Positions 811-60,296 are shown, counted from the stretch's first letter. The stretch is DNA of 64,000 bases from Candidatus Omnitrophota bacterium (GCA_003598025.1 QZKH01000002.1:206206-270205); one strand, 5' to 3'. Numbers and translations are program-made. The notes: generated by a model not told the origin, from the sequence alone.

Positions 811-899
811 TTTGTGCATGGTTCATAGAGCGTAGTTCATGGATTTGATTAATTTATTCAGAACAGTGCTCTGTGCACGGTGAACCGTGAACTCTATAG
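811..899. repeat. Palindromic heptamer-repeat element (GTTCATR units forward, then reverse-complement units)
   Basis: Seen directly: gcatggttcatagagcgtagttcatgg ... ctctgtgcacggtgaaccgtgaactctatag. The two halves are inverted relative to each other and can form a long hairpin. Confidence 0.7.
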
Positions 900-2580: not shown

Positions 2581-2582
2581 TG

Positions 2583-2661
2583 CATAGAGATGAGTTCATG
2601 GTTGATGGTTCGTGGACATATGAATATTTCTATGAACCATGAACTATGAACAATGAACTAA
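2583..2661. repeat. Palindromic heptamer-repeat element
   Basis: Forward units gagttcatggttgatggttcgtgg are followed by reverse units ctatgaaccatgaactatgaacaatgaactaat. One more ggttcatgg copy lies at about 2684. Confidence 0.7.
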
Positions 2662-2833
2662 TATAATCCCCTTGACAATTTCTGGTTCATGGATAATATA
2701 TAAATGATTGGTAAGGTAGAAAAAATTTATAGCAGCAAAACGTCTTCATAACATTTTATTTACAAACCTGCCTTATCAAGCCACCATAATTAACAAATAA
2801 TTACAGCAAAAATATTTCTTTAGGAGAATTTCT

Positions 2834-3088
2834 ATGGATGCGATTCTTTTCCTCAGGCTTCTGGATGACGAACGTGTTGCCCGGGAGATTGACAGGTACA
2901 AATGGATAGAGAGTGAAAGGCTAAAAAAGGATATAGGCAGGGAAAGGGCAGCTATGGAATGGATCAAGGCCTACGGCATGATTTGGCTTAAAATACACAA
3001 GCCAAATGACTATAGCTTTCTTATAGGCCGGGGAAAAACCGGTTATTTAGATAGCAGTCAAGCTAAACCTTTGACTGCGAAGATATAA
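2834..3088 (+). CDS. Small hypothetical protein (84 aa)
   Basis: The ORF is preceded by an AT-rich region containing TTGACA at about 2672. The sequence is charged and not hydrophobic. Family not recognised. Confidence 0.35.
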   Translation: MDAILFLRLLDDERVAREIDRYKWIESERLKKDIGRERAAMEWIKAYGMIWLKIHKPNDYSFLIGRGKTGYLDSSQAKPLTAKI

Positions 3089-3211
3089 TAAGATTGCTTG
3101 CAGCATTATTGAAGGTCACCCGGGTTAAAATTAGCGTTTTTTGGCTGGCTGACAAGTTTATATACCTCTTTTAGTTAGGCAAAATCAGCATTTATAGCTA
3201 TAGAAATTGAT

Positions 3212-3239
3212 TTGCCAAAGATTTAAATTCTGATATAAT
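3212..3239 (+). promoter_or_regulatory. Sigma70-like promoter of the pur operon (TTGCCA-N16-TATAAT)
   Basis: TTGCCA at 3212-3217 and TATAAT at 3234-3239 are separated by a 16-nt spacer. A GGAGGA RBS follows at 3250-3255. Confidence 0.35.
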
Positions 3240-3260
3240 AATTGCCTGCGGAGGATGCCT

Positions 3261-4747: not shown

Positions 4748-7651
4748 ATGTCTTGGAAAATTGAAATAAAAGATAAAGCCGAGGTATTTGATGCAATCGG
4801 AGAGGGTATTAAGCGGGATATCTTTGACCTGGGTATTTACGACGTTGAAGATGTAAAGTTTATACAGATATATATAATAAAGGACAGCATTACCCCTGAT
4901 GATGTAAAGAAAATATGCGAGGAAGTCCTTTTAGACAGCGTTTCACAAGAGTACTCTTTTTCAAAAACCAGCCAAATAAACAATAGTTTCGGCAATAATA
5001 CCCACGTAGTCGAAGTAGCCTATAATCCGGGAGTTATGGACCCGGTTGAAGAGTCCAGCCTTAAAGCAATCAGGGACATAGGAATATCCGCGGTAACTTC
5101 CATAAAAACAGCTAAAAAATATATCATCAAAGGCAGGCTTAATAACCATCAGCTGAAAATAATCTGTGATAAATTATTATACAATAAGCTTATACAGCAT
5201 ATAGTCCCGCGCATGGCAGAAGACAAAATCCCGGCGGAAGTAAAATATCAATTCAGATTAGTTACTGTCGGGTTGCTAAAAGCCGGTGATAAGAAATTAA
5301 TGCAGCTTAGTAAAAGCGGGCAATTGTTTCTTAATATAAATGAGATGCGCGCAATTAAGGATTACTTCAGGAAGCTTAAACGCGATCCTACGGATTGTGA
5401 GCTGGAGACCATAGCCCAGACCTGGTCAGAGCATTGCTGGCATAAAACGTTCAGGGGTAAGATAGATTATAAACAGTCAACTGTGAACGGTGCACTGTGC
5501 ACTAAAAAGATTGATAATCTCCTTAAATCAACGATAATGAAGGTCACCAAAGAGCTTAATAAGCCCTGGTGCGTATCGGTATTCAAGGATAACTCAGGTG
5601 TCATAAAGTTTGATGACGATTACAACATTTGTTTTAAAGTAGAGACCCATAACCATCCTTCAGCACTTGAGCCTTTCGGAGGGGCAAATACCGGTGTGGG
5701 CGGGGTAATCCGTGACCCGTTAGGCACCGGTATGGGCGCAAAACCTATCCTTAATACCGACGTTTTTTGTTTTGCCAGCCCGGATTATCCTTTCAGTAAA
5801 TTACCGGCAGGTACGTTGCATCCGAAAAGAGTGATGAAGGGGGTTGTTTCAGGAGTCAGGGATTATGGTAACAAAATGGGGATCCCCACTGTTAACGGCG
5901 CCATCCTTTTTCATGACAGATTTGTGGGCAATCCATTAGTTTATTGCGGCACCGTCGGAATAATGCCTAAAGACAAAGCATTTAAAAACCCGAGGAAGGG
6001 GGATTTAATCGTTGTAGTCGGCGGCAGGACGGGAAGAGACGGCATACACGGTGCGACATTCTCTTCCGGCGAGCTTACCCATGAGTCTGAAACAATATCA
6101 AGCGGGGCAGTCCAGATCGGTAATCCCATACAGGAAAAAAAGATGGTTGATACTATCCTTAAAGCAAGGGATAGGGGTTTGTATAGCGCGATAACTGATT
6201 GCGGAGCTGGCGGGCTATCCAGTGCGGTCGGGGAAATGGGCCAAGACCTGGGAGCGGTTGTATATTTGGATAAAGTCCCGCTTAAATATAGCGGCCTCTC
6301 TTATATGGAGATATGGATCTCGGAGTCGCAGGAAAGAATGGTCCTTTCGGTGCCGAAAGAGAATATAGCAGAATTGATAGATGTTTTTACTAAGGAGAAT
6401 GTGGAAGCAGCAGTTATCGGAGAGTTCCCGGGTGATGATAAATTAAGGCTTTATTATAACGATAAGAAAGTCTGTGAATTGGAAATGGGTTTTCTGCATG
6501 AAGGGCTGCCTAAAATAGAAAAGAAAGCCGTATTTAAACAGCATATTTACAGGGAACCGAAGCTTCGCTGTCCAAAGGATGTGACTAAAACTTTAAAACA
6601 GCTTCTTTCTCATTATGATATCTGTTCCAAGGAGTGGGTTATAAGGCAATATGACCATGAAGTCCAGGGGGGGTCTGTTGTTAAGCCTCTTATAGGCAAG
6701 TTTAACGACGGCCCGGCTGATGCTTCAGTAAACAGGCCTTTATTAAATTCAAACAGGGGCATTATTTTATCTAACGGGATCAATTTCAGGTTCGGCCTAA
6801 TCGACCCTTACTGGATGGCTGCTTCATGCATTGACGAGGCATTAAGGCAGATAATCGCAGTCGGCGGATCACTTGGGAGGGTCGCATTATTAGATAATTT
6901 TTGCTGGGGCAATCCTGATAAGCCTGATAGGCTTGGAGGTTTAGTGCGCGCTGCTTTAGGATGTTATGATATTGCAAAAGGTTTTGGCCTGCCTTTTATA
7001 TCGGGTAAAGACAGCCTGTATAACGAATTCACGGTCAATAAAAGATCCATCTCTATCCCGGGTACTTTACTGATTTCTGCCATTGCAGTCATGCAGGATG
7101 TATCAAAAGCCGTTTCGATGTACCTTAAGAAGCCGGGCAACCTCGTGTATATCGTAGGAGAAACTTTTAATGAGTTGGGAGGGTCACATTACTATGATAT
7201 TCTTGGTTATGTAGGCAATACCGTACCGAAGGTAGATGTTATTAAGGCAAAGAAAACATTTGTCGCTTTAAGTAAAGCTGCCTCTAGCGGCCTGGTAGAA
7301 TCTATCCATGATTGTTCTGACGGAGGCTTAGCCGTGAGTTGCGCCGAGATGTCTTTTGCTGGGAACCTTGGCATGAGAGTTTTCTTATCCGAGGCGCCGT
7401 TTAATAACAGCAAGGCAAGGCTTAGTAATGATTGTGTGCTTTTTTCCGAATCTAATTCCAGATTTATAGTAGAAGTGAGCCGCGAAAACCAAAAAGCTTT
7501 TGAAAAAACGCTTAAAGGCATTGTTTACGGCTTAATCGGATGCGTAACTAAAGAGGGTATATTGGAAGTCCATGGTTTAGACGGTAAAACATGTATCAGG
7601 GCATCTGTAGATGAGCTTAAGACGGCCTGGAAGGAGCCTTTGCAATGGTGA
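4748..7651 (+). CDS. purL: Phosphoribosylformylglycinamidine synthase, PurS-PurL fusion
   Basis: An N-terminal PurS-like segment of about 80 aa is followed by the PurL motif HNHPSALEPFGGANTGVGGVIRD and duplicated AIRS domains, for 967 aa in total. A separate purQ lies downstream. Confidence 0.9.
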   Translation: MSWKIEIKDKAEVFDAIGEGIKRDIFDLGIYDVEDVKFIQIYIIKDSITPDDVKKICEEVLLDSVSQEYSFSKTSQINNSFGNNTHVVEVAYNPGVMDPVEESSLKAIRDIGISAVTSIKTAKKYIIKGRLNNHQLKIICDKLLYNKLIQHIVPRMAEDKIPAEVKYQFRLVTVGLLKAGDKKLMQLSKSGQLFLNINEMRAIKDYFRKLKRDPTDCELETIAQTWSEHCWHKTFRGKIDYKQSTVNGALCTKKIDNLLKSTIMKVTKELNKPWCVSVFKDNSGVIKFDDDYNICFKVETHNHPSALEPFGGANTGVGGVIRDPLGTGMGAKPILNTDVFCFASPDYPFSKLPAGTLHPKRVMKGVVSGVRDYGNKMGIPTVNGAILFHDRFVGNPLVYCGTVGIMPKDKAFKNPRKGDLIVVVGGRTGRDGIHGATFSSGELTHESETISSGAVQIGNPIQEKKMVDTILKARDRGLYSAITDCGAGGLSSAVGEMGQDLGAVVYLDKVPLKYSGLSYMEIWISESQERMVLSVPKENIAELIDVFTKENVEAAVIGEFPGDDKLRLYYNDKKVCELEMGFLHEGLPKIEKKAVFKQHIYREPKLRCPKDVTKTLKQLLSHYDICSKEWVIRQYDHEVQGGSVVKPLIGKFNDGPADASVNRPLLNSNRGIILSNGINFRFGLIDPYWMAASCIDEALRQIIAVGGSLGRVALLDNFCWGNPDKPDRLGGLVRAALGCYDIAKGFGLPFISGKDSLYNEFTVNKRSISIPGTLLISAIAVMQDVSKAVSMYLKKPGNLVYIVGETFNELGGSHYYDILGYVGNTVPKVDVIKAKKTFVALSKAASSGLVESIHDCSDGGLAVSCAEMSFAGNLGMRVFLSEAPFNNSKARLSNDCVLFSESNSRFIVEVSRENQKAFEKTLKGIVYGLIGCVTKEGILEVHGLDGKTCIRASVDELKTAWKEPLQW

Positions 7652-18618: not shown

Positions 18619-19101
18619 ATGAAGAAAACAAAAAGACTTATCCATTACAGGCCGACATGGGACGAATATTTTATGGAAGTCGCAAGCCTTGTCTCCAAGA
18701 GGGCGACTTGTTTAAGGAGGCGGGTTGGGGCAGTCCTGGTAAAAGGCAAGAGGATACTGGCTACCGGTTATAACGGCGCTCCTTCAGGCCTGAGTCATTG
18801 TCTGGATGTGGGTTGCTTGAGAGAAAAACTCGGCATACCCTCGGGCCAGCGCCATGAACTATGCCGCGGCCTGCATGCCGAACAGAACGTATTGGTCCAG
18901 GCAGCACTATATGGGATTAGCACTCAAAACAGCACCCTTTATGTGACCAATCAGCCTTGTATTATCTGCGCTAAAATGCTGATTAATGCCGGCATCAAAG
19001 AAATAGTTATCAGTGATGGTTATCCTGATGAGATGGCACAGGACTTCTTAAAGAAGGCCAAGGTGAAGGTAAGGAAGGTAAAGCCGGTTCATAGTTCATA
19101 G
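18619..19101 (+). CDS. dCMP/cytidine deaminase family (ComEB-like)
   Basis: The zinc motifs HAEQN and PCIICAKML are present. The last five codons and the stop are encoded by the heptamer repeat. Confidence 0.8.
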
Positions 19102-19152
19102 TTGATGGGAAAAACTGTGTCTATGAACCATGAACCATAAACTATGAACTAA
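19086..19152. repeat. Palindromic heptamer-repeat element
   Basis: Seen directly: ggttcatagttcatagttgatgg ... ctatgaaccatgaaccataaactatgaactaat. It overlaps the 3' end of the deaminase gene and abuts the nrdR start. Confidence 0.7.
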
Positions 19153-23178: not shown

Positions 23179-23601
23179 TTGTTTTTCAGCGGCATAATTT
23201 TCTTTTCAGCCTGTATGATTTCAAGTCTTGGCTGTGCTAAAAACACGCACAAGAAAGTCTGTATAAAGAATGCCTGTATATCGGCTGAAATTGCGGATAC
23301 AGAAGGCAAAAGAACCAGGGGTTTAATGTTCCGGAAGGGTTTAGGCGGGGATGCAGGCATGCTCTTTGTTTATGAAAAAAATGTGCGTCCGTCATTTTGG
23401 ATGAAAAACATGCGTTTTCCGTTAGATATAATCTGGATAGATAAGGACCATAGGATAGTTGATGTTGTTTCTGATGTTCAGCCCTGCACCGATGATTGCG
23501 CATTACTGGTTTCGGATAGAGAGGTGCAATTCATACTTGAGGTAGAGTCGGGATTTGTAAGAAGGCATAATATAAAGCTGGGAGAACTTGTTGAGTTTTA
23601 A
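23179..23601 (+). CDS. DUF192 family protein, secreted
   Basis: A signal peptide is followed by the motifs RTRGLMFR, GMLFVY and LDIIWID. Confidence 0.55.
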   Translation: MFFSGIIFFSACMISSLGCAKNTHKKVCIKNACISAEIADTEGKRTRGLMFRKGLGGDAGMLFVYEKNVRPSFWMKNMRFPLDIIWIDKDHRIVDVVSDVQPCTDDCALLVSDREVQFILEVESGFVRRHNIKLGELVEF

Positions 23602-25472
23602 CCTTCCCGCAGTTGTTTTTCCGCATCCACAATATCACGGTTGATCACGCGTATTGTTTCATGGATTTTTTCTTTTAAGACATGTGAAATAGGGCAGGTG
23701 GCTATTTCTCTCAACACCTGTACGCTCATCCTGAAATAGCGTATAACTTCTCCTTCGTCGGTATCGGTCATCTGGAGGGTTTTGTTAAAGTTAGTTCCTC
23801 TTAACCAGGCTTCCATGCAGGCGCTTAAGTGAAAGAATGGCTGTTTGCTTACGGGATAGATTCTATAACGGCGTTCTTTTTCTTTTATCTTCTCAAAGAT
23901 ATCTTCGCATATATGCCTTATCCTTTTAGTGTTTTTTGATAAAGTAAGGATATGCTGGTTTTTCCTCGGCTCAAATACAACTCCCGCGGCAATGATCCCT
24001 AAGCCAAATTCATCCAGTTGCTCAAGGACCTGCTCCTCAAATAATTCAGAAAGCACCAATTCATACCCGTATACAGACTTAGCAAATTTCCCTTTTTCCG
24101 TGAGATGGCCGTCGTAGATATAGCCCATATCCTTAAGCAATTTTATCTTTGCGTCTATCAGCCTTAACGCCTCTCTTTGGTCATGGCTTTTGGATTGAAA
24201 ATAATGGAATGAAAGCGGGTATACCCTGTGGACTTCGTCTTTATATCTTTCGTAAAGGTTTAATATGGTAGCGTAGGAATTATTCAGCTGGCTCCTTACT
24301 TCTTCAGGCCTGCCGTAAATGATGCGCTTCGTATCTTCGGGTGATATCCTGTTAGGATTTACGCGGCAGTAGACAAAACCCTCTTTATCTATTCCTCTTC
24401 TTCCTGCGCGGCCCGCCATCTGGTAAAAATCCCTGGTTTTTAAGTTCCTGAAGAACCTGCCGTAGTATTTGCGCAGGTCGTCGAACATAACGCTGCGGCT
24501 GGGCATATTTATCCCCAGGGCAAAGGTCTCGGTGGTAAATATTATTTTTAAAAGCCTGCTGGTAAAAAGCCTTTCAATCACTTCTTTTAAGGTTGGCAGC
24601 ATGCCAGCATGATGGTAGGCGATACCTTTTTGTACAAGGGTAAATATTGCCTGGGCGGATTTTTCGTGTGTCAGGCTGAATTTTTCACAGAGCAAATTAA
24701 AAAGAGCAATGATTTTTTCTTTCTCCTGCGAGCTCAGGAAATTGTACCCTGATAATTCAAAGGCAAGCTCTTCGGCCCTGCGCCTGCCGAATACAAAATA
24801 AATTCCGGGCAGGCCGTCTTTTTGCTTTACGTAATTTATCAAAGCATTAAATTTGTTTGGGCGCGGATTCTTCGTCCTCCTGATCTTATTGATGTTGTCC
24901 AGTATCTCATTATTCGATTGGAAGAAAAAATGCAGGGGGACGGGGCGTTTTTCCTCAATGACCATCTTGGTCGGTTTTTTGCGTATTGTTTCTATCCATT
25001 GGGCAAAGAATTTTATATTTGGTATAGTGGCTGATAGGCCCAGGAGATTTAAATGTTCGGGCATAAAAATCAACGATTCTTCCCAGACTGTGCCGCGTTC
25101 AGGGTTATCAATGTAGTGTATCTCATCAAAGATCACCCAGGAATATTTTTTCAGGCTTAGCGGCTCCTCAAGTATCTTATTGCGCAGGATCTCCGTGGTC
25201 ATTATAAGCACAGGGGCATCCGGGTTAATGGATACATCGCCGGTAAGTATCCCTATTTTTTCTGAAAAGTTATCGTAGAAATCGCGGAATTTCTGGTTAG
25301 AGAGCGCTTTTATCGGTGCGGTATAAATTACGCCGGTATTTAATTTTATGGACTCGCTTATTACATGCTCTGCTATTGCTGTTTTGCCTGCGCCTGTTGG
25401 AGCCGAGACTATTACAGAATAGCCCTGATTTATGTAATTTATAGCTTCTTCTTGAAACCGGTCATATATCAT
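23598..25472 (-). CDS. Ski2-like DEAD/DEAH-box superfamily-2 helicase
   Basis: Walker A APTGAGKT, motif II DEIHY and the Ski2-type motif AYHHAGMLP are present, with arginine-finger QxxGRAGR. Confidence 0.8.
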   Translation of the reverse strand: MIYDRFQEEAINYINQGYSVIVSAPTGAGKTAIAEHVISESIKLNTGVIYTAPIKALSNQKFRDFYDNFSEKIGILTGDVSINPDAPVLIMTTEILRNKILEEPLSLKKYSWVIFDEIHYIDNPERGTVWEESLIFMPEHLNLLGLSATIPNIKFFAQWIETIRKKPTKMVIEEKRPVPLHFFFQSNNEILDNINKIRRTKNPRPNKFNALINYVKQKDGLPGIYFVFGRRRAEELAFELSGYNFLSSQEKEKIIALFNLLCEKFSLTHEKSAQAIFTLVQKGIAYHHAGMLPTLKEVIERLFTSRLLKIIFTTETFALGINMPSRSVMFDDLRKYYGRFFRNLKTRDFYQMAGRAGRRGIDKEGFVYCRVNPNRISPEDTKRIIYGRPEEVRSQLNNSYATILNLYERYKDEVHRVYPLSFHYFQSKSHDQREALRLIDAKIKLLKDMGYIYDGHLTEKGKFAKSVYGYELVLSELFEEQVLEQLDEFGLGIIAAGVVFEPRKNQHILTLSKNTKRIRHICEDIFEKIKEKERRYRIYPVSKQPFFHLSACMEAWLRGTNFNKTLQMTDTDEGEVIRYFRMSVQVLREIATCPISHVLKEKIHETIRVINRDIVDAEKQLREG

Positions 25473-25475
25473 AGT

Positions 25476-25567
25476 ATTAGTTCATGGTTCATAGTTCATA
25501 GATTAGTTCACAGTGCACAGTTCGCAGAGCACAGATTAGTTCATGGTTCACGGTTCATGGAGTACAG
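25476..25567. repeat. Heptamer-repeat array, forward orientation (about 13 units; attagttcaYRG sub-repeats)
   Basis: Seen directly between the helicase start and the downstream minus-strand ORF. Confidence 0.7.
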
Positions 25568-26380
25568 TTATTGAATTTGTTTTATAAATTTAATAAATCT
25601 TCTTGTATAGAGCGTGTAAAAGAATGAAGTGTCATTAACATATTGACCCTCGGAGATACGGCTTGAAGACTTATTCCAATATAGAACATTTGAAAACAAG
25701 CCTATATTTCTAAGTTCCCTTACCGCTGAATCAGTTAATTCAGGGGAGTATTGGAATTTCTGATGTGTTTCTGTTACGACATCTCTTATTATAATCTGCG
25801 GTAATGAAATTGTACTCTCTAATTGTTTATCATACTTTTCATAAATAGCATATAGTACATTTAATGCCACCTTGCTTAAATGCCTAATTAAATCAATAAA
25901 TCGTAATTTTTCATCTTCTGAAACATTCCTATCGGAAGCATTAAATAGGGCATTAACAAATATTTCTTGCTTGTCCATATATTCTGCGTTTAATGCTGTC
26001 TCCATTATTTTAATACAAAACAACTGTCCTTCTTGTGTATTAAAATATTCCTGCAGTTTATTTTTGAATTCGTCATTAAGGTTATTAATTCTATTTTCAA
26101 GATGCCCCAACATTTGAATTCGAGTTTGTTCTTTTATGGAATCTTGACATTTTTCTAATCCTTCTACCAAATCCCCCCATAGCGGGACCCTTTTTGCGAA
26201 GCTTTTTACAGCTCCCCAAAGTCCTGATTTTACGGCTAAGAGCCGGTTTGTTCTAATGTTTTCTTTATTCATCAGTTCGTTTACAAAGTTATTTGTAGAG
26301 ACTATGGCGTGAAGGAACAATAAATTTGGACCCCCCACCATTCTTTCTTTAGTTACTTTTAACCATGAACTATGAACCAT
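25568..26380 (-). CDS. Hypothetical protein, AT-rich, no recognised domain
   Basis: A 270-aa ORF on the minus strand lies in a visibly AT-rich segment bracketed by heptamer arrays of opposite orientation. The start codon lies inside the right-hand array. Confidence 0.5.
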   Translation of the reverse strand: MVHSSWLKVTKERMVGGPNLLFLHAIVSTNNFVNELMNKENIRTNRLLAVKSGLWGAVKSFAKRVPLWGDLVEGLEKCQDSIKEQTRIQMLGHLENRINNLNDEFKNKLQEYFNTQEGQLFCIKIMETALNAEYMDKQEIFVNALFNASDRNVSEDEKLRFIDLIRHLSKVALNVLYAIYEKYDKQLESTISLPQIIIRDVVTETHQKFQYSPELTDSAVRELRNIGLFSNVLYWNKSSSRISEGQYVNDTSFFYTLYTRRFIKFIKQIQ

Positions 26381-26393
26381 CAACTATGAACTA
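26361..26393. repeat. Heptamer-repeat array, reverse orientation (aaccatgaactatgaaccatcaactatgaactaa)
   Basis: Seen directly. It is the inverted partner of the 25476..25567 array. Confidence 0.7.
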
Positions 26394-26397
26394 ACCT

Positions 26398-26570
26398 ATC
26401 CCACAGCTATAATCCCGGGATAAGTTCGGTCCTATAACTTACGTTCTACGCCTACGGCGTATCCGTAAGTTATGACCTCACAAATCCCACAGCTATAATC
26501 CCGGGATAAGTTCGCGCATACAATTTACGTTCGCCGCCTTTGGCGCCTCCGTAAATTGTGCGCTCACTTA
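26398..26570 (+). ncRNA. Two tandem 86-bp structured units (candidate small RNA genes or recombination sites). Each has a conserved 31-nt leader containing TATAAT and the palindrome ATCCCGGGAT, followed by a hairpin whose stems co-vary.
   Basis: The leader atcccacagctataatcccgggataagttcg is identical in both units. The unit A stem pairs ATAACTTACG with CGTAAGTTAT, and the unit B stem pairs ACAATTTACG with CGTAAATTGT. These differ by two compensated base pairs (T-A to C-G and C-G to T-A). The strand is not determined. Confidence 0.4.
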
Positions 26571-26585
26571 TTATATTCTAAAAAC

Positions 26586-26614
26586 ATTGATTTATCTATT
26601 ATTAAATAGTAGAA
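26586..26614 (+). promoter_or_regulatory. Sigma70-like promoter (TTGATT-N17-TAGAAT) for the downstream gene
   Basis: The spacing and hexamers are seen directly. An AAGGGG RBS follows, about 4 nt before the ATG at 26623. Confidence 0.35.
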
Positions 26615-26622
26615 TAAGGGGC

Positions 26623-27174
26623 ATGAGTTATGAGGTGGCGCTGAATAAGGCATGGCTAGATATTGCTAACCTTAATGTTACCAAGAATTTATCGGTAAAA
26701 TTTCTTGGTGATGAGTATTCGGTTGATACAGAAAACAGGGTAATCCTGTCTTTGGCTTGTAACGTAAAAACGAAAGACTATAGGACAATACTTATCCTGC
26801 ATTATTTGAAGAAAAAAATATCAGGTTTGCCTTTATTAAGCGGTAACTGGAAGAATTTCAGAGAGATAGCCTTGATCGAAGGCTATCACGATACATTCAG
26901 GAACAGGGTGCTTAAGCCGTTAATAAGGAAATACGGCAGGAACCCGGAAGGAATTTCTGATTCGATTAAGCGCTTCAAAGCCAGAATGGTTAATAAGGCA
27001 GATGTGGCTTTTGAGGTTGAGGTTTTTGAGGGTGTTCCTGTCTTGATAGAGTTATGGCGCCAGGACGAAGAGTTTGAGGCAGAGGCAAATCTCCTTTTTG
27101 ACGCGAGTATTACCGATATTTTCTGCATAGAAGACATTGTGGTATTGGCTGAGACAGTAGCAGCAGCACTTTAG
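26623..27174 (+). CDS. Hypothetical protein (possibly DUF3786-like)
   Basis: A 183-aa ORF begins MSYEVALNKAW. The family assignment is from memory only. Confidence 0.4.
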   Translation: MSYEVALNKAWLDIANLNVTKNLSVKFLGDEYSVDTENRVILSLACNVKTKDYRTILILHYLKKKISGLPLLSGNWKNFREIALIEGYHDTFRNRVLKPLIRKYGRNPEGISDSIKRFKARMVNKADVAFEVEVFEGVPVLIELWRQDEEFEAEANLLFDASITDIFCIEDIVVLAETVAAAL

Positions 27175-47180: not shown

Positions 47181-47270
47181 TTAGTTGACAGTTCACAGAG
47201 CACAGATTAGTTCACAGTTCACTGTTCACGGATCACAGAACATGGCTGTGAACTAATCTATGAACTAAAA
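47181..47270. repeat. Palindromic heptamer-repeat element (GTTCACR units)
   Basis: Forward units gttcacagagcacagattagttcacagttcactgttcacgg are followed by reverse units ctgtgaactaatctatgaactaa. Confidence 0.7.
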
Positions 47271-55769: not shown

Positions 55770-57819
55770 ACAAGTCAAAAAAATACTATTCATCACCCTA
55801 AGCAATATCGGTGATAATTTTCTATCCCTTCCGGTATTAGATACCTTAAAAGAATGTTTCCCCCTTGCCCAGATACACGTAATGGCAGCGCTCCGGCCTA
55901 AAGAGATATTTGAGAATAACCCCCTGATAAGTAAAGTCATCGCGTACGATAAGCACTCCCGCTTAAGCGAGAAGATGAAATTGTTCGGCCAGCTCCAGAG
56001 AGAAAGATACGATATCGTCATTGATTTGCGCAACAGCCTCTTTGGCGCGCTCCTTCCTGCGCGCTACAGGATTTCGCCGTTTCTTATCGTGCCTAAAGAC
56101 ATAAAGCATATGAATTCCAGGCATCTTTATAAAGTAAAAAAGATCCTGCTTAAGATAAAGAAAGATTTATCCGTAAGCATGAAGGAGACAGTGTTTTTCT
56201 TGAACCCCGAGGATAAGGCGCGCATAAAGAAGATCCTTTTAGACCACGGACTTTTTTTCCGTAACGACGTAGTCGTGGTCTCAGCCGGCGCGCGCAGTTA
56301 TATCAAGCGCTGGCCCAAGGAAAAATTCACCGAGCTCATTACTTTAATGATAAAAGAATTCGGCGTAAAGGTGGTCTTAGTCGGAGATAAGGACGATGAG
56401 CCGGTCTCTGAATATATAGCCAGCAACTGCCCGTATCCTGTGTTGAATTTAACGGGCCAAACCAATATCGCCCAGCTTGCGTACCTTTTAAAGCGGGCAA
56501 GGTTTTTAATAACTAATGACAGCGCGCCTCTTCATATCGTAAGTTACCTGAACGTGCCGGTAGTGGCAATATTCGGGCCGACCAACGAAGAAAAATACGG
56601 TCCCTGGTCGGATAACTATTCGCTGGCAAAAAAAGATATCTCCTGCCGGCCGTGCGAGAAAGCAGATTGTTCCCTCGGCTCGATAAACTGCATGAACATG
56701 ATAAGGGCTGACGAGGTATTACGCCTTGCGCGCAAGATGATAGTTGACAAGTTTGAGCCGCAAGATAAAAAGATAGACCATGATTTTAAGCGCATCCTCA
56801 TTGTGCGCACTGACAGGATCGGCGATGTGGTCTTATCTACCCCGGTGATTAAGAACCTGCGCAATAGATTCCCTTCAGCATATATTGCCATGGTGGTTTC
56901 TCCGCAGGCAAAGGAGATAATTGACAATAACCCCTATCTTGATGAAGTGATACTCTATGATAAGGACAAAGAGCATAAAGGATGGCAGCAGAGCATGGAA
57001 TTTGCCGGGCTTCTTGCCAAGAAAAAGTTTGATATAGCAATAATACTGCATCCGACCAACCGCATGCACTTATTGACATTCCTGGCAAAGATACCGGTCA
57101 GGGTAGGCTATGACAAGAAAATGGGATTTTTGTTGAGTAAAAAGATAAAGCATACAAAACAATTAGGGCAAAAACACGAGCTTGAGTATAATCTGGATTT
57201 ATTAAAGGCAATCGGCATAAATGCCGAAGATAAAGAATTAATTTTTAATATCCGCCCGGAAGTTGAGATATGGGCGCGCCATAAATTAATGAATTTGGGC
57301 GTAAAAGACAACGAGAAGGTAATAGCAATACATCCCTCAGCAAGTTGCCCTTCTAAGATCTGGCCGCATGAGAGATTTGCACAACTTGCAGATAAGCTTA
57401 TCGAGAAATACAGCTTTAAAGTGCTCATTGTGGCTGCTGCAAAGGATAATTATCTGGCTGAAAAAGTGATGAAAGAGATGTATAATGAAGCCATAAACTT
57501 AAGCGGAGAGACTTCCGTCAGCCAATTAGCCGCAATATTAAAGAGAAGCGTTTTATTCATATCCAATGATTCCGGGCCCGTGCATGTTGCTAGCGCGGTA
57601 AACACTCCGGTTATCTCCATTTTTGGCAGGAACCAGGCAGGGCTTAGCCCCAAGCGCTGGGCGCCGGTAGGCAAAAAAGATAAGGTCCTGCATAAAGAAG
57701 TCGGCTGCATCCAATGCCTTGCGCATAACTGTAAAAAGAATTTTGCCTGTTTAAGGGCGATAGGTGTGGAGGATGTGATTAGAGCGGTGGAAGAGGTATT
57801 AGCGAAGCAGCTGTTATAA
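55756..57819 (+). CDS. Tandem double GT9 heptosyltransferase (two complete GT9 modules in one polypeptide)
   Basis: The two halves carry the motifs NDSAPLHIVS and NDSGPVHVASA, each with its own N-terminal ILxxxxxxIGD block. Confidence 0.75.
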   Translation: MPKDKQVKKILFITLSNIGDNFLSLPVLDTLKECFPLAQIHVMAALRPKEIFENNPLISKVIAYDKHSRLSEKMKLFGQLQRERYDIVIDLRNSLFGALLPARYRISPFLIVPKDIKHMNSRHLYKVKKILLKIKKDLSVSMKETVFFLNPEDKARIKKILLDHGLFFRNDVVVVSAGARSYIKRWPKEKFTELITLMIKEFGVKVVLVGDKDDEPVSEYIASNCPYPVLNLTGQTNIAQLAYLLKRARFLITNDSAPLHIVSYLNVPVVAIFGPTNEEKYGPWSDNYSLAKKDISCRPCEKADCSLGSINCMNMIRADEVLRLARKMIVDKFEPQDKKIDHDFKRILIVRTDRIGDVVLSTPVIKNLRNRFPSAYIAMVVSPQAKEIIDNNPYLDEVILYDKDKEHKGWQQSMEFAGLLAKKKFDIAIILHPTNRMHLLTFLAKIPVRVGYDKKMGFLLSKKIKHTKQLGQKHELEYNLDLLKAIGINAEDKELIFNIRPEVEIWARHKLMNLGVKDNEKVIAIHPSASCPSKIWPHERFAQLADKLIEKYSFKVLIVAAAKDNYLAEKVMKEMYNEAINLSGETSVSQLAAILKRSVLFISNDSGPVHVASAVNTPVISIFGRNQAGLSPKRWAPVGKKDKVLHKEVGCIQCLAHNCKKNFACLRAIGVEDVIRAVEEVLAKQLL

Positions 57820-57892
57820 TTAGTTCATAGTTCATAGTTAATGGTTCATAGTTCATAGATTAGTTCACGGTTCACAGAGCATAGTTCATAGA
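57819..57892. repeat. Heptamer-repeat array, forward orientation (about 10 GTTCATA units)
   Basis: Seen directly after the GT9 stop. Confidence 0.7.
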
Positions 57893-57953
57893 AATATCAA
57901 GAAGAGGTTAGAGGGGCCTGGTCCTTAAAATTAGTTCCTATAAGAAATGGGCT

Positions 57954-58271
57954 TTGGAGGAAATTATGGATAATAAAAAGATATATAATAATGACTTGAT
58001 AGTGTTTTCGATTTTGGGGAGCTTATGCCTTTTGCCGTCTTTATTAATGCTATACTATTTTTTTGTTTCAGAATCCAGCCAACCGCCGTATCTATTAAGA
58101 ATGCTTTTTGAGATTATGCTTTCATCAAAAACCTATGCCCCTATGTGGTCAGAGGTTGATAAAGATCTTTTACTATACCGAGCTATTATTTGGATGGCTT
58201 TAGGTATCGGATTGATAGGTTTTGGAATTTATAAATATAAAAAGGAATCGGTTATTAAGACTAGTTTATAG
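57954..58271 (+). CDS. Small AT-rich hypothetical membrane protein (2 TM)
   Basis: A 105-aa ORF lies between two forward heptamer arrays. Its stop codon is supplied by the next repeat. Confidence 0.4.
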   Translation: MEEIMDNKKIYNNDLIVFSILGSLCLLPSLLMLYYFFVSESSQPPYLLRMLFEIMLSSKTYAPMWSEVDKDLLLYRAIIWMALGIGLIGFGIYKYKKESVIKTSL

Positions 58272-58383
58272 TTGATGGTTCATAGATCATAGAAATAGAT
58301 AAAGTAGGTAGTCACAAAGACACACGACACAAGGACACAAAAATTAGTTCACGGTTCACAGTACACGGAGCACAGTTAATGCA
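58263..58383. repeat. Left terminal inverted repeat of cassette (heptamer units + about 75-nt core aaagtaggtagtcacaaagacacacgacacaaggacacaaaaa)
   Basis: By-eye alignment with the reverse complement of 60092..60248 shows the about 75-nt core differing at only 3 positions. The flanks are more diverged. Confidence 0.75.
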
Positions 58384-58423
58384 CTAGATTCGTTTGAGAA
58401 CTGTTCAGTTGGAGGAATTTAAC

Positions 58424-59104
58424 ATGTATACGATTATAAAAAAAATACTAGCGAAGATAGTTAATAATAAAGATCTAATTGTAACTATTGTAGCTGTTGT
58501 TGCACTTGTAGTTTCCGTTAGGGGATGTTGCGTATCTACGGATGCTTATAGACTATCTAAAGAATCTAAAAATATAGCAAAGGATGCTTTAGATACGGGA
58601 AAATATCAGTTTATCCAAATTAATCGCCCTTATGTATTGATCTCTCCAAAGAAATTCAATGATGGCTCATTTTGGAAAATTCAGCAAAAAAGCAATCACG
58701 TCGAAATTATAGTTAAATACGAAATAAAGAACGTGGGTAACGTTGCGGCAAAAAATATTGAATTACCTGATAATTTAATAATTGGACAAGAGACAAAACT
58801 CAAGAGAGATGCACCTGTTTCTTATAAGAAAATGAGCGAGGTGACATTAGGACCCGGAGATTTTTATGAACTTGTGTGTAGTTTTGTGTTAGATTATTCA
58901 GACGAAGAGGCAGCCAAAAATAATTATGAGTATATTGTTTCGGATTCAAGTGAAGGCCTAACTTTGTTGTTAGCGGTAACTTATACAAACGAGATAGATG
59001 GATTTATGGAATATAGGACAATAGTTGAAAACAGAATTCATAATGATAATGCTTTAATTATCAAATCTGAGATGCTTAATCTCAATACTAAAGCTAAGAA
59101 TTGA
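58424..59104 (+). CDS. Cassette gene A: single-pass membrane protein with unknown extracytoplasmic domain
   Basis: A GGAGG RBS lies 9 nt before the ATG at 58424, and the listed ORF starts at 58394. The TM helix is LIVTIVAVVALVVSV. The region is visibly AT-rich. Confidence 0.5.
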   Translation: MYTIIKKILAKIVNNKDLIVTIVAVVALVVSVRGCCVSTDAYRLSKESKNIAKDALDTGKYQFIQINRPYVLISPKKFNDGSFWKIQQKSNHVEIIVKYEIKNVGNVAAKNIELPDNLIIGQETKLKRDAPVSYKKMSEVTLGPGDFYELVCSFVLDYSDEEAAKNNYEYIVSDSSEGLTLLLAVTYTNEIDGFMEYRTIVENRIHNDNALIIKSEMLNLNTKAKN

Positions 59105-59182
59105 ATTGCAAATAATATAGTTAGAGAGTCGTCTTTAAATAGAAAACACTGTTTTGTATTTAAGAAGCTCAAAAGAAGATCT

Positions 59183-59992
59183 ATGAAAAATTTAGACTTG
59201 GAGAAAAATGCAATAAAAGGGATTCGAGAAGCGATAGCTTGGCATACTATAATAGTGGATGTTTCCCTCGCCAATACTTCTCTTGGGTGGGGGACGGGAA
59301 CATTATTAGAGATAAATAGCAGAAAGTTTATATTAACATGCGCACATGTAGTTAAAAAAGAATATAAAAATAAAGATTTGAGGTTTATTTATCGCTCAGG
59401 AAATTCTTTAAGAGATGCTGATAAAGATATTATTAAAGAAGCTCCGCTTAATGATCTAGTTGAAGCAGATGATAAAGCGTATTCTTTAGAAATTCCAACA
59501 ATTAATAGGTTTTATTCTGATTTTACTGATGATTTAGTCATGCTGGAATTAGAGCCAACAGCAAAAACAATAAGTAATTTTGTTTTTTTTGATGCCTCTA
59601 TAGGGAGAATCATATCTCCTGAAATTGGCATGGCGACTTATATGCTTGGTTTTTCTGTTGAACTAACAAGAGAAATTAATAAATATGGTGTTGGAAATTT
59701 CCATTATTTCTTGGGATCAAAAATCATAGATTTTGCTGCTTCTGACCGAAGCATTGATTATAATAGGCAATTTTTTATCGATTATAGTATTGATGATCAC
59801 TCAGTTGACCTGCATGGTTTGAGCGGCTGTGGAGTATGGACGCGCAAGCCATCTGGAAAGAATAATTTATGGTCTCCAAATCTTTATCTTGTTGGAGTCC
59901 AGGATGCTTTTATCACAGTAACTAGAAAATTTCAGCCTATCCGAGCGACTAGGGGAGAAAGAATAACAGATTTAATTAACAAAACAATATAA
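59183..59992 (+). CDS. Cassette gene B: trypsin-fold (chymotrypsin-like) serine protease candidate
   Basis: The catalytic-triad contexts appear in canonical order: His in LTCAHVV, Asp in DDLVMLELE (compare trypsin DIMLIKL) and Ser in HGLSGCGVW (compare GDSGGP). The region is AT-rich. Confidence 0.5.
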   Translation: MKNLDLEKNAIKGIREAIAWHTIIVDVSLANTSLGWGTGTLLEINSRKFILTCAHVVKKEYKNKDLRFIYRSGNSLRDADKDIIKEAPLNDLVEADDKAYSLEIPTINRFYSDFTDDLVMLELEPTAKTISNFVFFDASIGRIISPEIGMATYMLGFSVELTREINKYGVGNFHYFLGSKIIDFAASDRSIDYNRQFFIDYSIDDHSVDLHGLSGCGVWTRKPSGKNNLWSPNLYLVGVQDAFITVTRKFQPIRATRGERITDLINKTI

Positions 59993-60091
59993 ATAATAAA
60001 CACTTTATGATATGTGTGTAAAGTGGATTTTGGTTTTCTCAATAAGCTATCAGCTCCAGGCTATATTTATCGTGATATACATATAGTTTTT

Positions 60092-60248
60092 CTGTGACCT
60101 TGTGTCTTTGTGACCAACTACTCTAGTTATTACTGTGCTCCGTGAACCGTGATCTGTGAACTCAAGCTTTTTGTGTCCTTGTGTCGTGTGACTTTGTGAC
60201 TACCTACTTTAGCTATTTCTATGAACTATGAACCATCAACCATGAACC
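60092..60248. repeat. Right terminal inverted repeat of cassette (reverse-complement heptamer units + core + an extra partial copy of the gtgtc/gtgac motif)
   Basis: See the left TIR. Its outer end is ctatgaactatgaaccatcaaccatgaacc. Confidence 0.75.
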
Positions 60249-60296
60249 TTTTTTCCCTTTGCTTTCCCTCATTTTTGTGCTAAAATTAACAGTTCA

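What the first reader, a model, noticed from the sequence alone, without database searches (positions are those of the whole stretch)
25476..26393. Second repeat-bracketed AT-rich cassette: orphan minus-strand ORF between inverted heptamer arrays, next to the only other minus-strand gene (Ski2-like helicase)
All but two genes in the window are on the plus strand. The exceptions are a Ski2-like SF2 helicase (23598-25472) and an adjacent 270-aa ORF with no recognisable domain in a visibly AT-rich stretch. The orphan ORF is flanked on the left by a forward heptamer array and on the right by a reverse array, the same inverted bracketing seen around the protease cassette. A heptamer array also separates it from the helicase. 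This suggests insertion of a foreign gene into a palindromic heptamer element, that is, that these elements are insertion hotspots. Helicase plus unknown partner is also a common defence-system layout.
Basis: partly seen in the sequence, partly recalled or inferred. Interest (0 to 1): 0.55.

Follow-up and report, generated by a model that had tools for sequence, protein, structure and literature searches.

The report
Foreign Abi-like gene between heptamer arms
A small AT-rich gene, distantly related to a known phage abortive-infection protein, was inserted between a core helicase gene and its promoter in an Omnitrophota genome, and it sits between the two halves of one of the genome's palindromic 7-base repeat hairpins; it is an accessory-gene insertion at a hotspot, not a helicase-based defence system.

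Summary
Forward GTTCAYR heptamer arrays (25476-25567) and a reverse array (26357-26393) bracket an AT-rich minus-strand gene.

**The gene.** It is real and under purifying selection. Its likely start is ATG 26272, which gives 234 aa rather than 270. It belongs to a rare family (about 106 clusters) that is remotely homologous to Pfam Abi_alpha, a single-gene abortive-infection protein, and it has a C-terminal winged helix.

**The insertion.** About 1.09 kb lies exactly between the helicase's ancestral -10 box and its ATG. The gene is absent at this junction in all 80 related Omnitrophota species examined, where the gap is usually about 20-60 bp.

**The helicase.** It is a core, syntenic gene, so the "helicase plus partner defence system" reading is not supported.

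**The junction.** It is a phylum-wide insertion hotspot, holding IS200/IS605 elements, Y1 transposases, MITEs and REP-like hairpins in other species. Two relatives carry solo palindromic heptamer hairpins there.

**The heptamer elements.** The forward-then-reverse form is widespread (Omnitrophota, CPR, Bacteroidota, phages), outnumbers the opposite order 52:1, and was not found in the literature searched.

**Insertion mechanism.** The idea that the cargo entered the loop of such a hairpin is plausible. In the window, both AT-rich islands are flanked by half elements and all four other array sites are full palindromes. It remains unproven: no empty site was found in a close relative, and other genomes show no general cassette signal.

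The parts
23598..25472 (-). Core Ski2-like SF2 helicase (DEAD + Helicase_C + DSHCT). This is the resident gene whose leader received the insertion; it is not part of the cargo.
   Evidence: Pfam DEAD 2e-25 and DSHCT 3e-24. It has 70-74% identical orthologues in 80 Omnitrophota species with conserved neighbours AroC-SNase-DUF3786 <-> helicase-(DUF192)-Macro/NUDIX.
25476..25567 (+). Forward heptamer arm: three blocks (25476-25501, 25502-25534, 25535-25567), each ATTA + (GTTCAYR)n. It fills the whole space between the orphan's stop codon and the helicase ATG.
   Evidence: No reverse partner lies nearby, so this is a half element.
25568..26272 (-). Cargo gene: a 234-aa Abi_alpha-related protein made of a helical domain and a C-terminal winged helix.
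26273..26356 (-). AT-rich 5' region of the cargo gene. No convincing promoter of its own was found here.
   Evidence: The promoter scan found nothing on the minus strand in this stretch.
26357..26393 (-). Reverse heptamer arm: GTTCATA GTTGATG GTTCATA GTTCATG GTT when read on the minus strand.
   Evidence: In the predicted fold of a minus-strand transcript it pairs with the forward arm.
26398..26569 (-). Two tandem 86-nt REP-like hairpin elements. On the minus strand each reads GTGAG-hairpin-CGAACTTATCCCGGGATTATAGCTGTGGGAT.
   Evidence: TRF period 86, 1.9 copies, 83% matches. Stable hairpins, z about -5, in which the two copies differ on both strands of the stem yet both still fold. The same element family follows the helicase -10 box in L016, L017, L018, L021, L030 and L062, and is dispersed elsewhere in several of these loci.
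26570..26598 (-). Ancestral helicase promoter (TAGATA-17-TATAAT), now 1.1 kb from the helicase ATG.
   Evidence: Promoter scan 10 of 12. It aligns with the conserved junction ...ATAAATCAAnnnnTTTTAGAnTATAATAAG... of relatives, where the ATG follows 5-6 nt later.
26587..26615 (+). DUF3786 promoter half of the ancestral bidirectional promoter (TTGATT-17-TAGAAT). It is intact.
26623..27174 (+). DUF3786 gene, the resident core gene on the other side of the insertion.
   Evidence: Pfam DUF3786 1e-36. It is the conserved divergent neighbour of the helicase.

Best explanation
**What it is.** The flagged segment is the core of a lineage-specific insertion of about 1.09 kb (25473 to about 26569). It lies in what is ancestrally a roughly 60-bp bidirectional promoter between two core genes, the Ski2-like helicase and DUF3786. 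The break is between the helicase's -10 box and its ATG.

**Order of parts, from the DUF3786 side.**
- two REP-like hairpin elements of a family common in Omnitrophota;
- a reverse heptamer arm;
- an AT-rich, horizontally acquired gene;
- a forward heptamer arm that abuts the helicase ATG.

**The arms.** They are the two halves of the genome's own palindromic heptamer-repeat hairpin, a forward GTTCAYR array followed by a reverse array. The cargo sits where the loop would be.

**Most likely history (inferred).** A hairpin element already occupied this hotspot, as it does in relatives L077 and L054. The foreign gene entered its loop, either through breakage and repair at the hairpin tip or through recombination between homologous arms.

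**Expression (inferred).** The gene lies in the same direction as the helicase and has no evident promoter or terminator of its own. It is therefore probably co-transcribed with the helicase from the displaced ancestral promoter.

**The product.** It is a divergent relative of Abi-alpha, a helical domain plus a winged helix. Its most likely role is a stand-alone accessory or phage-defence-type protein that does not depend on the helicase. The homology is shown; the defence function is inferred.
For: **Insertion.**
- Of the 80 species, 66 had a scorable junction, most with a gap of about 20-60 bp; none of the 80 has the orphan.
- The alignment shows the window keeps ...ATAAATCAATGTTTTTAGAATATAATAAG and then diverges, where relatives reach the helicase ATG.
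- The ancestral promoter is still detectable at 26570-26598.

**Foreign origin.**
- GC and GC3 are 5-6 sd below core genes.
- The homologue in L001 is equally AT-rich (0.32 in a 0.42 contig) and sits at an unrelated locus.

**Hotspot.** The same junction holds Y1 transposases, IS605 TnpA+TnpB, an ORF6N gene, RadC and MITE-like hairpins in other species.

**Split palindrome.**
- All four non-cassette array sites (814-892, 2594-2658, 19087-19149, 47184-47268) are complete forward-reverse hairpins.
- All five arrays flanking the two AT-rich islands are half elements with forward...reverse polarity.
- The second island has arms of about 125 nt at about 90% identity.
- Solo heptamer hairpins occupy the same junction in L077 and L054.
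- The cargo's homologues elsewhere carry no inverted repeats of their own, so the arms come from the host.

**Protein.**

**Co-transcription.** No terminator and no promoter were detected between the right arm and the helicase ATG on the minus strand.
Against: - No close relative with an empty site or a solo GTTCAYR palindrome at this exact junction was found. L077 and L054 are different species with different heptamer units.
- Arrays occupy 8 of the 13 intergenic gaps of 60 nt or more, so arrays on both sides of a new gene are not very improbable in themselves. Only two cassettes support the pattern.
- In 203 other array-bearing contigs, forward...reverse pairs at 301-3000 nt are not enriched (3 of 27). 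All three have host-like GC between the arms, and in L201 the interior holds core genes (rpmE/prfA).
- The arms of this cassette are unequal (92 nt against 37 nt) and share only heptamer units.
- The window protein itself scores 16.5 bits against Abi_alpha, below the 29-bit cut-off. It has no PADLOC hit and no relatives in phage collections.
- No defence or prophage genes lie next to it.
Confidence: 0.55

Rival explanations
1. The forward arm, cargo and reverse arm form one non-autonomous mobile unit: a foldback- or MITE-like element whose terminal inverted repeats are made of tandem heptamers. A transposase encoded elsewhere moves it, and the solo palindromes are its cargo-less derivatives.
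For: - The architecture recurs twice in 64 kb with the same polarity.
- The second cassette has arms of about 125 nt at about 90% identity that include a unique non-heptamer module.
- Forward-reverse elements are widespread and strongly polar (52:1), which suggests a defined element rather than random slippage.
- Arrays occur even inside coding regions, in PurL in the window and PrmC in L201, as mobile mini-elements do.
Against: - No target-site duplication is visible at the outer edges.
- A tblastn search found no IS200-type Y1 transposase in the window; other transposase or integrase families were not searched for.
- The orphan's homologues in other genomes lack such arms.
- The arms of cassette 1 are unequal and generic.
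- No second copy of either cassette was seen.
Confidence: 0.2
2. There is no mechanistic link. The AT-rich gene arrived by ordinary illegitimate or homologous recombination at a hotspot. Heptamer arrays then seeded and expanded independently in the two new intergenic spaces, and their inverted orientation is coincidence.
For: - Arrays fill most long intergenic gaps, 8 of 13.
- Lone forward or reverse arrays are common in other genomes, and forward...reverse pairs there can enclose core genes.
- Heptameric repeats are known to be over-represented in bacterial intergenic DNA, possibly through polymerase slippage (PMC4692102).
Against: - In the window, half elements occur only at the two foreign islands, and both have the polarity of a split palindrome.
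- The 125-nt composite arms of the second island cannot arise independently.
Confidence: 0.2
3. The helicase and the orphan form a two-gene anti-phage system of the Hachiman type (HamB-like helicase plus effector).
For: - They are adjacent, co-directional and probably co-transcribed.
- The helicase matches PADLOC HamB models, E 2e-34.
Against: - The helicase is a core gene with fixed synteny in 80 species that lack the orphan.
- It carries a DSHCT domain typical of Ski2/HelY-type RNA helicases.
- The HamB hits cover only the generic SF2 core.
- The orphan hits no PADLOC model, and its homologues are never next to a helicase.
Confidence: 0.03

Closest known systems
Abi-alpha (Pfam PF14337, formerly DUF4393; EF2833 of Enterococcus faecalis V583 prophage 6)
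   Same: It is a single small protein (234 aa here, 272 aa for EF2833) with no enzymatic motif, encoded on horizontally moving DNA. The orphan family is remotely homologous: 13 of 67 members hit the model, one distant member (P0104) passes the curated cut-off, and hhalign gives 96.8%.
   Different: The window protein scores below the Pfam cut-off (16.5 against 29 bits). The host is Omnitrophota rather than Firmicutes. There is no prophage context and no relatives in phage collections. The abortive-infection phenotype (premature lysis, PMC6356687) is untested.
Intergenic heptameric tandem repeats (cyanobacterial STRR; Xanthomonas GGGAATC repeats, which include inverted pairs)
   Same: These are tandem 7-nt units, mostly intergenic, variable in copy number, sometimes arranged as inverted pairs able to form stem-loops, and of unknown function (PMC4692102).
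   Different: The unit is GTTCAYR. The dominant form is a defined forward-then-reverse hairpin (52:1 over the opposite order) with an ATTAG start. It was found in Omnitrophota, a CPR bacterium, a Bacteroidota genome and a phage. I found no description of it in the searched literature.
REP / BIME / REPIN elements and their use as insertion targets by IS elements
   Same: These are short palindromic intergenic repeats at the 3' ends of genes. They exist as doublets that form hairpins, and REP sites are known from the general literature to be targets for IS insertion. The junction studied here holds Y1 (IS200/RAYT-type) transposases in L013 and L033.
   Different: Here the stems are built from tandem heptamers. 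No RAYT is present in the window. The inserted DNA is a cargo gene rather than an IS.
Foldback transposons of eukaryotes (architectural analogy only, from my own knowledge)
   Same: They have long inverted terminal arms composed of short tandem sub-repeats, arms of variable and unequal length, and a central loop that may be empty or carry coding sequence.
   Different: They are eukaryotic. No transposase is known here, no target-site duplication was seen, and mobility is not demonstrated.

Membership tests
Pfam Abi_alpha (PF14337) | Score at or above the curated gathering cut-off (29 bits) against the family HMM | tested here: not met
   The window protein scores 16.5 bits, E 0.009, over residues 63-193 against profile positions 7-143 of 196.
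Pfam Abi_alpha (PF14337) | Homology to bona fide members by profile methods | tested here: met
   13 of 67 family members hit Abi_alpha, best E 7e-6. P0104, retrieved by the orphan-family profile at E 1e-4, scores 32.8 bits and so passes the cut-off. hhalign of the family against P0104 gives probability 96.8%, E 2e-10, over 160 columns.
Pfam Abi_alpha (PF14337) | Abortive-infection phenotype (premature lysis on phage infection) | not testable with these tools
   This is known only for EF2833 of E. faecalis (PMC6356687).
Pfam Abi_alpha (PF14337) | Prophage or defence-island context | tested here: not met
   The neighbours are core genes. There were no matches in INPHARED phages or IMG/VR. 18 of 67 family members do match phrog_11520, a phage protein family of unknown function.
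Hachiman-type helicase plus partner defence system | A HamA (DUF1837) partner next to a HamB helicase | tested here: not met
   The orphan hits no PADLOC model at E <= 0.1.
Hachiman-type helicase plus partner defence system | Accessory, patchily distributed locus | tested here: not met
   The helicase is present with the same neighbours in 80 species at 70-74% identity. It has a DSHCT domain.
Heptameric intergenic tandem repeats (STRR-like) | Tandem 7-nt units, several copies, far above chance | tested here: met
   (54 matches against 2.55 expected).
Heptameric intergenic tandem repeats (STRR-like) | Intergenic location | tested here: met
   9 of the 10 GTTCAYR-type array sites are intergenic. 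The exception (5468-5502) lies in frame in a PurS-PurL linker.
REP/REPIN elements | Association with a RAYT (Y1) transposase in the genome | tested here: inconclusive
   There is none in the 64-kb window. The rest of the genome could not be read. Y1 genes occur at this junction in L013 and L033, but with other repeats.
TIR transposon / MITE / foldback element | Terminal inverted repeats | tested here: met
   22-39 nt arms at 74-95% complementarity for this cassette, and about 125 nt at about 90% for the second cassette.
TIR transposon / MITE / foldback element | Target-site duplication and multiple copies with the same ends | tested here: not met
   No direct repeat is visible at the outer edges. 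Each cassette is seen once, and the unique spacer of cassette 2 occurs only in its own two arms.

The most novel reading that the evidence does not exclude
Palindromic heptamer-repeat hairpins (forward GTTCAYR array, short loop, reverse array, with species-specific unit variants) would be an undescribed and widespread class of prokaryotic foldback-like element, present in Omnitrophota, CPR, Bacteroidota and their phages. Their loops would act as capture sites for foreign genes, including defence-type genes such as the Abi-alpha-like gene here and a protease in the second island that matches a Lamassu LmuA model. They would then work as a recombinase-independent analogue of integron cassettes.
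Probability: 0.12. Interest if true: 0.8.

Novelty: new variant of a known kind. Interest (0 to 1): 0.4.

Why it matters
- **Effect on a core gene.** In a streamlined, almost uni-directional genome, an accessory gene was slipped between a core gene's promoter and its start codon without removing either. This probably turned a near-leaderless helicase mRNA into a two-gene transcript.
- **A new Abi_alpha branch.** The case identifies a small Omnitrophota-centred branch of the Abi_alpha superfamily.
- **A possible element class.** The palindromic heptamer hairpins that bracket both AT-rich islands appear not to have been described, and they occur across phyla with a strict polarity. If they really are preferred entry points for foreign genes, they would be a new way of building defence islets in small genomes.
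- **What the evidence allows.** The present data support the insertion and the homology. They do not establish the capture mechanism.

Tried and rejected
- **Helicase-partner defence system.** Rejected on synteny and PADLOC results.
- **Paralogy between the orphan and the 236-aa gene of the second cassette.** None found.
- **Known RNA families in the region.** Only a sub-threshold IMES-3 match turned up, so nothing usable.
- **Phage origin of the orphan.** No tblastn hit in INPHARED, no relatives in IMG/VR, and no significant BFVD fold match.
- **Foldseek against AFDB.** The library was not available.
- **Profile search of the word-indexed protein database with the wider alignment.** It added nothing.
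- **Same-strain or near-strain contigs for an empty-site test.** Only the same contig is on record. Look-ups with the helicase and four other window proteins failed, so the window could not be extended.
- **Inverted repeats around orphan homologues in L001, L003 and L296.** None flank the gene.
- **General enrichment of forward...reverse pairs at cassette distances in 203 array-bearing contigs.** Not found.
- **Literature search for the repeat sequences.** It returned only unrelated primer matches.

Full report
**Source and observation**

The window is part of contig JAGUZT010000009.1 of a Candidatus Omnitrophota MAG, GCA_020060685.1.

The flagged arrays are real.
- Positions 25476-25567 hold three forward blocks, each ATTA followed by 3-4 units of GTTCAYR type.
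- Positions 26357-26393 hold one reverse block.
- A two-unit pattern occurs 54 times in the window, against 2.55 +/- 1.65 in shuffles.
- The ORF between the arrays is strongly AT-rich: GC 0.321 and GC3 0.268, against 0.435 +/- 0.021 and 0.475 +/- 0.035 for 54 core ORFs.
- The helicase and this ORF are the only convincing minus-strand genes.

The 271-codon ORF begins at a TTG inside the repeat. Five homologues all start at the residue corresponding to ATG 26272, so the gene is most likely 25568-26272, 234 aa.

**The helicase is a core gene, not a defence partner**

The helicase has DEAD, Helicase_C and DSHCT domains. It has full-length orthologues at 70-74% identity in at least 80 Omnitrophota species.

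The neighbourhood is conserved: AroC-SNase-DUF3786 on one strand, then helicase-(DUF192)-Macro/NUDIX. None of these loci encodes the orphan.

The PADLOC HamB hits cover only the generic SF2 core. The orphan hits no PADLOC model.

**Where exactly the insertion lies**

In most relatives the helicase and DUF3786 start codons are about 20-60 bp apart. They share a conserved bidirectional promoter:

CAT...ttattttactatttttattagATAAATCAAnnnnTTTTAGAnTATAATAAGnnnATG.

The window keeps the DUF3786 half and the helicase -10 box next to DUF3786. A promoter-like site TAGATA-17-TATAAT lies at 26598-26570 on the minus strand, and TTGATT-17-TAGAAT at 26587-26615 on the plus strand.

The helicase ATG is now 1.1 kb away. 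The insertion therefore sits between the -10 box and the ATG. From the DUF3786 side it consists of:
- two tandem 86-nt hairpin elements (26398-26569);
- the reverse arm;
- the AT-rich gene with its 84-nt upstream region;
- the forward arm, which abuts the helicase ATG.

No promoter or terminator was detected on the minus strand between the right arm and the helicase. Read-through from the old promoter is therefore the simplest way to express both genes; this is an inference. In an in-silico fold of such a transcript the two arms pair and enclose the whole orphan mRNA.

**The junction is a hotspot**

In other species the same gap contains:
- Y1 (IS200/RAYT-type) transposases (L013, L033);
- a complete IS605-type TnpA+TnpB (L076);
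- an ORF6N gene (L070);
- RadC and an HTH-like ORF, the latter judged from its sequence only (L033);
- long MITE-like hairpins (L041, L045, L050, L057, L079).

The REP-like element GTGAG-hairpin-CGAACTTATCCC follows the -10 box at the same nucleotide in the window and in L016, L017, L018, L021, L030 and L062. It also occurs elsewhere in several of these loci.

Two relatives carry solo palindromic heptamer-repeat hairpins at this junction: L077 5876-5955 (units GYTCATA, -32 kcal/mol) and L054 1643-1753 (units CCAAWTY, -49 kcal/mol).

**The cargo protein**

Its closest homologues (52-69% identity) come from Omnitrophota and from metagenomes. They sit at unrelated loci: between QueA and a flavodoxin gene in L001, and next to Dus in L003. 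They have no heptamer arms and no inverted repeats of their own.

- dN/dS of 0.12-0.27 indicates a functional gene.
- A profile search of 1.84 billion representative proteins finds only 106 relatives.
- 13 of 67 members hit Pfam Abi_alpha, and 18 of 67 hit phrog_11520.
- One distant member, P0104, passes the Abi_alpha cut-off at 32.8 bits.
- P0104 aligns to the family profile with 96.8% probability, E 2e-10.

Abi-alpha is a single-gene abortive-infection protein of an E. faecalis prophage (PMC6356687). The window protein itself is below the curated cut-off (16.5 bits) and has no phage or defence context. I therefore call it an Abi_alpha-related protein of inferred function, not demonstrated function.

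**The heptamer elements**

The window has 10 GTTCAYR-type array sites, and 8 of the 13 intergenic gaps of 60 nt or more carry one.

- The four sites away from the AT-rich islands (814-892, 2594-2658, 19087-19149, 47184-47268) are complete forward-then-reverse hairpins. Three are much more stable than shuffles (z -4.6 to -7.7); the fourth is only moderately so (z -2.6).
- The five arrays flanking the two AT-rich islands are all half elements: forward on one side of the cargo and reverse on the other. The polarity relative to the cargo genes is the same in both islands.
- The second island (58394-59992) has composite arms of about 125 nt at about 90% identity. Its cargo is a membrane protein plus a trypsin-like protease that matches a PADLOC LmuA model at 6e-7.

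**Scans for the repeat in other sequence collections**

Scans of IMG/VR and of metagenome contigs found the same kind of element in many contigs with GC from 0.24 to 0.64.

The contigs come from:
- an Omnitrophota genome;
- a Daviesbacteria (CPR) genome;
- a contig whose TrpB clusters at 90% identity with Mucilaginibacter proteins;
- a bona fide phage.

For pairs within 150 nt, forward-reverse outnumbers reverse-forward 52 to 1.

Heptameric intergenic repeats as a class are known (PMC4692102). I found no description of this element.

**Limits of the capture idea**

In those other contigs, forward...reverse pairs 301-3000 nt apart are not enriched (3 of 27). All three have host-like GC between the arms, and in L201 the interior holds core genes, rpmE-prfA.

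No target-site duplication is visible, and no IS200-type Y1 transposase lies in the window.

No near-identical strain was available for an empty-site test.

**Verdict**

- Firmly supported: the observation, the foreign origin of the gene, and the precise insertion point.
- Supported: the remote homology to Abi_alpha.
- Rejected: the helicase-partner reading.
- Unproven: that the cargo entered, or was exchanged into, the loop of a resident palindromic heptamer element. This is the best available explanation of the bracketing.

Two alternatives remain open:
- a trans-mobilised foldback-like cassette;
- independent seeding of the arrays after the insertion.

Noticed in passing
window 26398-26569; also L016, L017, L018, L021, L030, L062 just upstream of the helicase, and other sites in L013, L018, L031, L034, L046, L062, L073, L082: A REP-like element family (GTGAG, a hairpin with a variable stem, then CGAACTTATCCC) is dispersed across several Omnitrophota species. 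In the two window copies the stems differ on both strands yet both still fold. In seven genomes the element sits at the same nucleotide after the helicase -10 box, so it could be a conserved structured leader or a site-specific insertion.
   Followed up: partly
window 57819-60250: A second AT-rich island (GC 0.31-0.34) has composite inverted arms of about 125 nt at about 90% identity: a heptamer array, a unique CACAARG-rich module, then another heptamer array. Its cargo is a 236-aa membrane-anchored protein and a 269-aa trypsin-like protease that matches the PADLOC LmuA model PDLC03855 at 6e-7. A 105-aa membrane ORF lies between two forward arrays.
   Followed up: partly
window 5468-5502; L201 189-216: Heptamer arrays lie in frame inside coding sequence. 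In the window one sits in the linker of a PurS-PurL fusion (residues about 240-251). In an Omnitrophota contig one sits just before the NPPY motif of PrmC, encoding YELRTMNYELI. This suggests the arrays can be inserted rather than only growing by slippage in place.
   Followed up: partly
L093-L295 (IMG/VR and metagenome contigs), e.g. L140 7949-8042, L164 4132-4287 and 5827-5927, L281, L288: Forward-then-reverse GTTCAYR hairpins occur in contigs with GC from 0.24 to 0.64. Sources include a CPR (Daviesbacteria) genome, a contig whose TrpB clusters at 90% identity with Mucilaginibacter proteins, and a tailed phage, where they sit between structural genes. Close forward-reverse pairs outnumber reverse-forward pairs 52 to 1, a polarity that hairpin stability alone does not explain.
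   Followed up: partly
L012-L091, helicase/DUF3786 junction: In most species both genes appear to be leaderless or nearly so, transcribed from a bidirectional promoter of about 60 bp. Species with insertions at the junction have a second helicase promoter version (TTGCGGTTGCGG...CTTATAATAGAAATC-ATG) right next to the ATG.
   Followed up: no
window 814-892 and 902-977: A complete palindromic heptamer element lies 10 nt upstream of the only tRNA gene in the window (tRNA-Met, CAT).
   Followed up: no
window 2581-3254: A 674-nt low-GC intergenic stretch (GC about 0.36) follows the solo palindrome at 2594-2658 and has no ORF of 110 aa or more. It might be a decayed cassette or a non-coding RNA region.
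   Followed up: no
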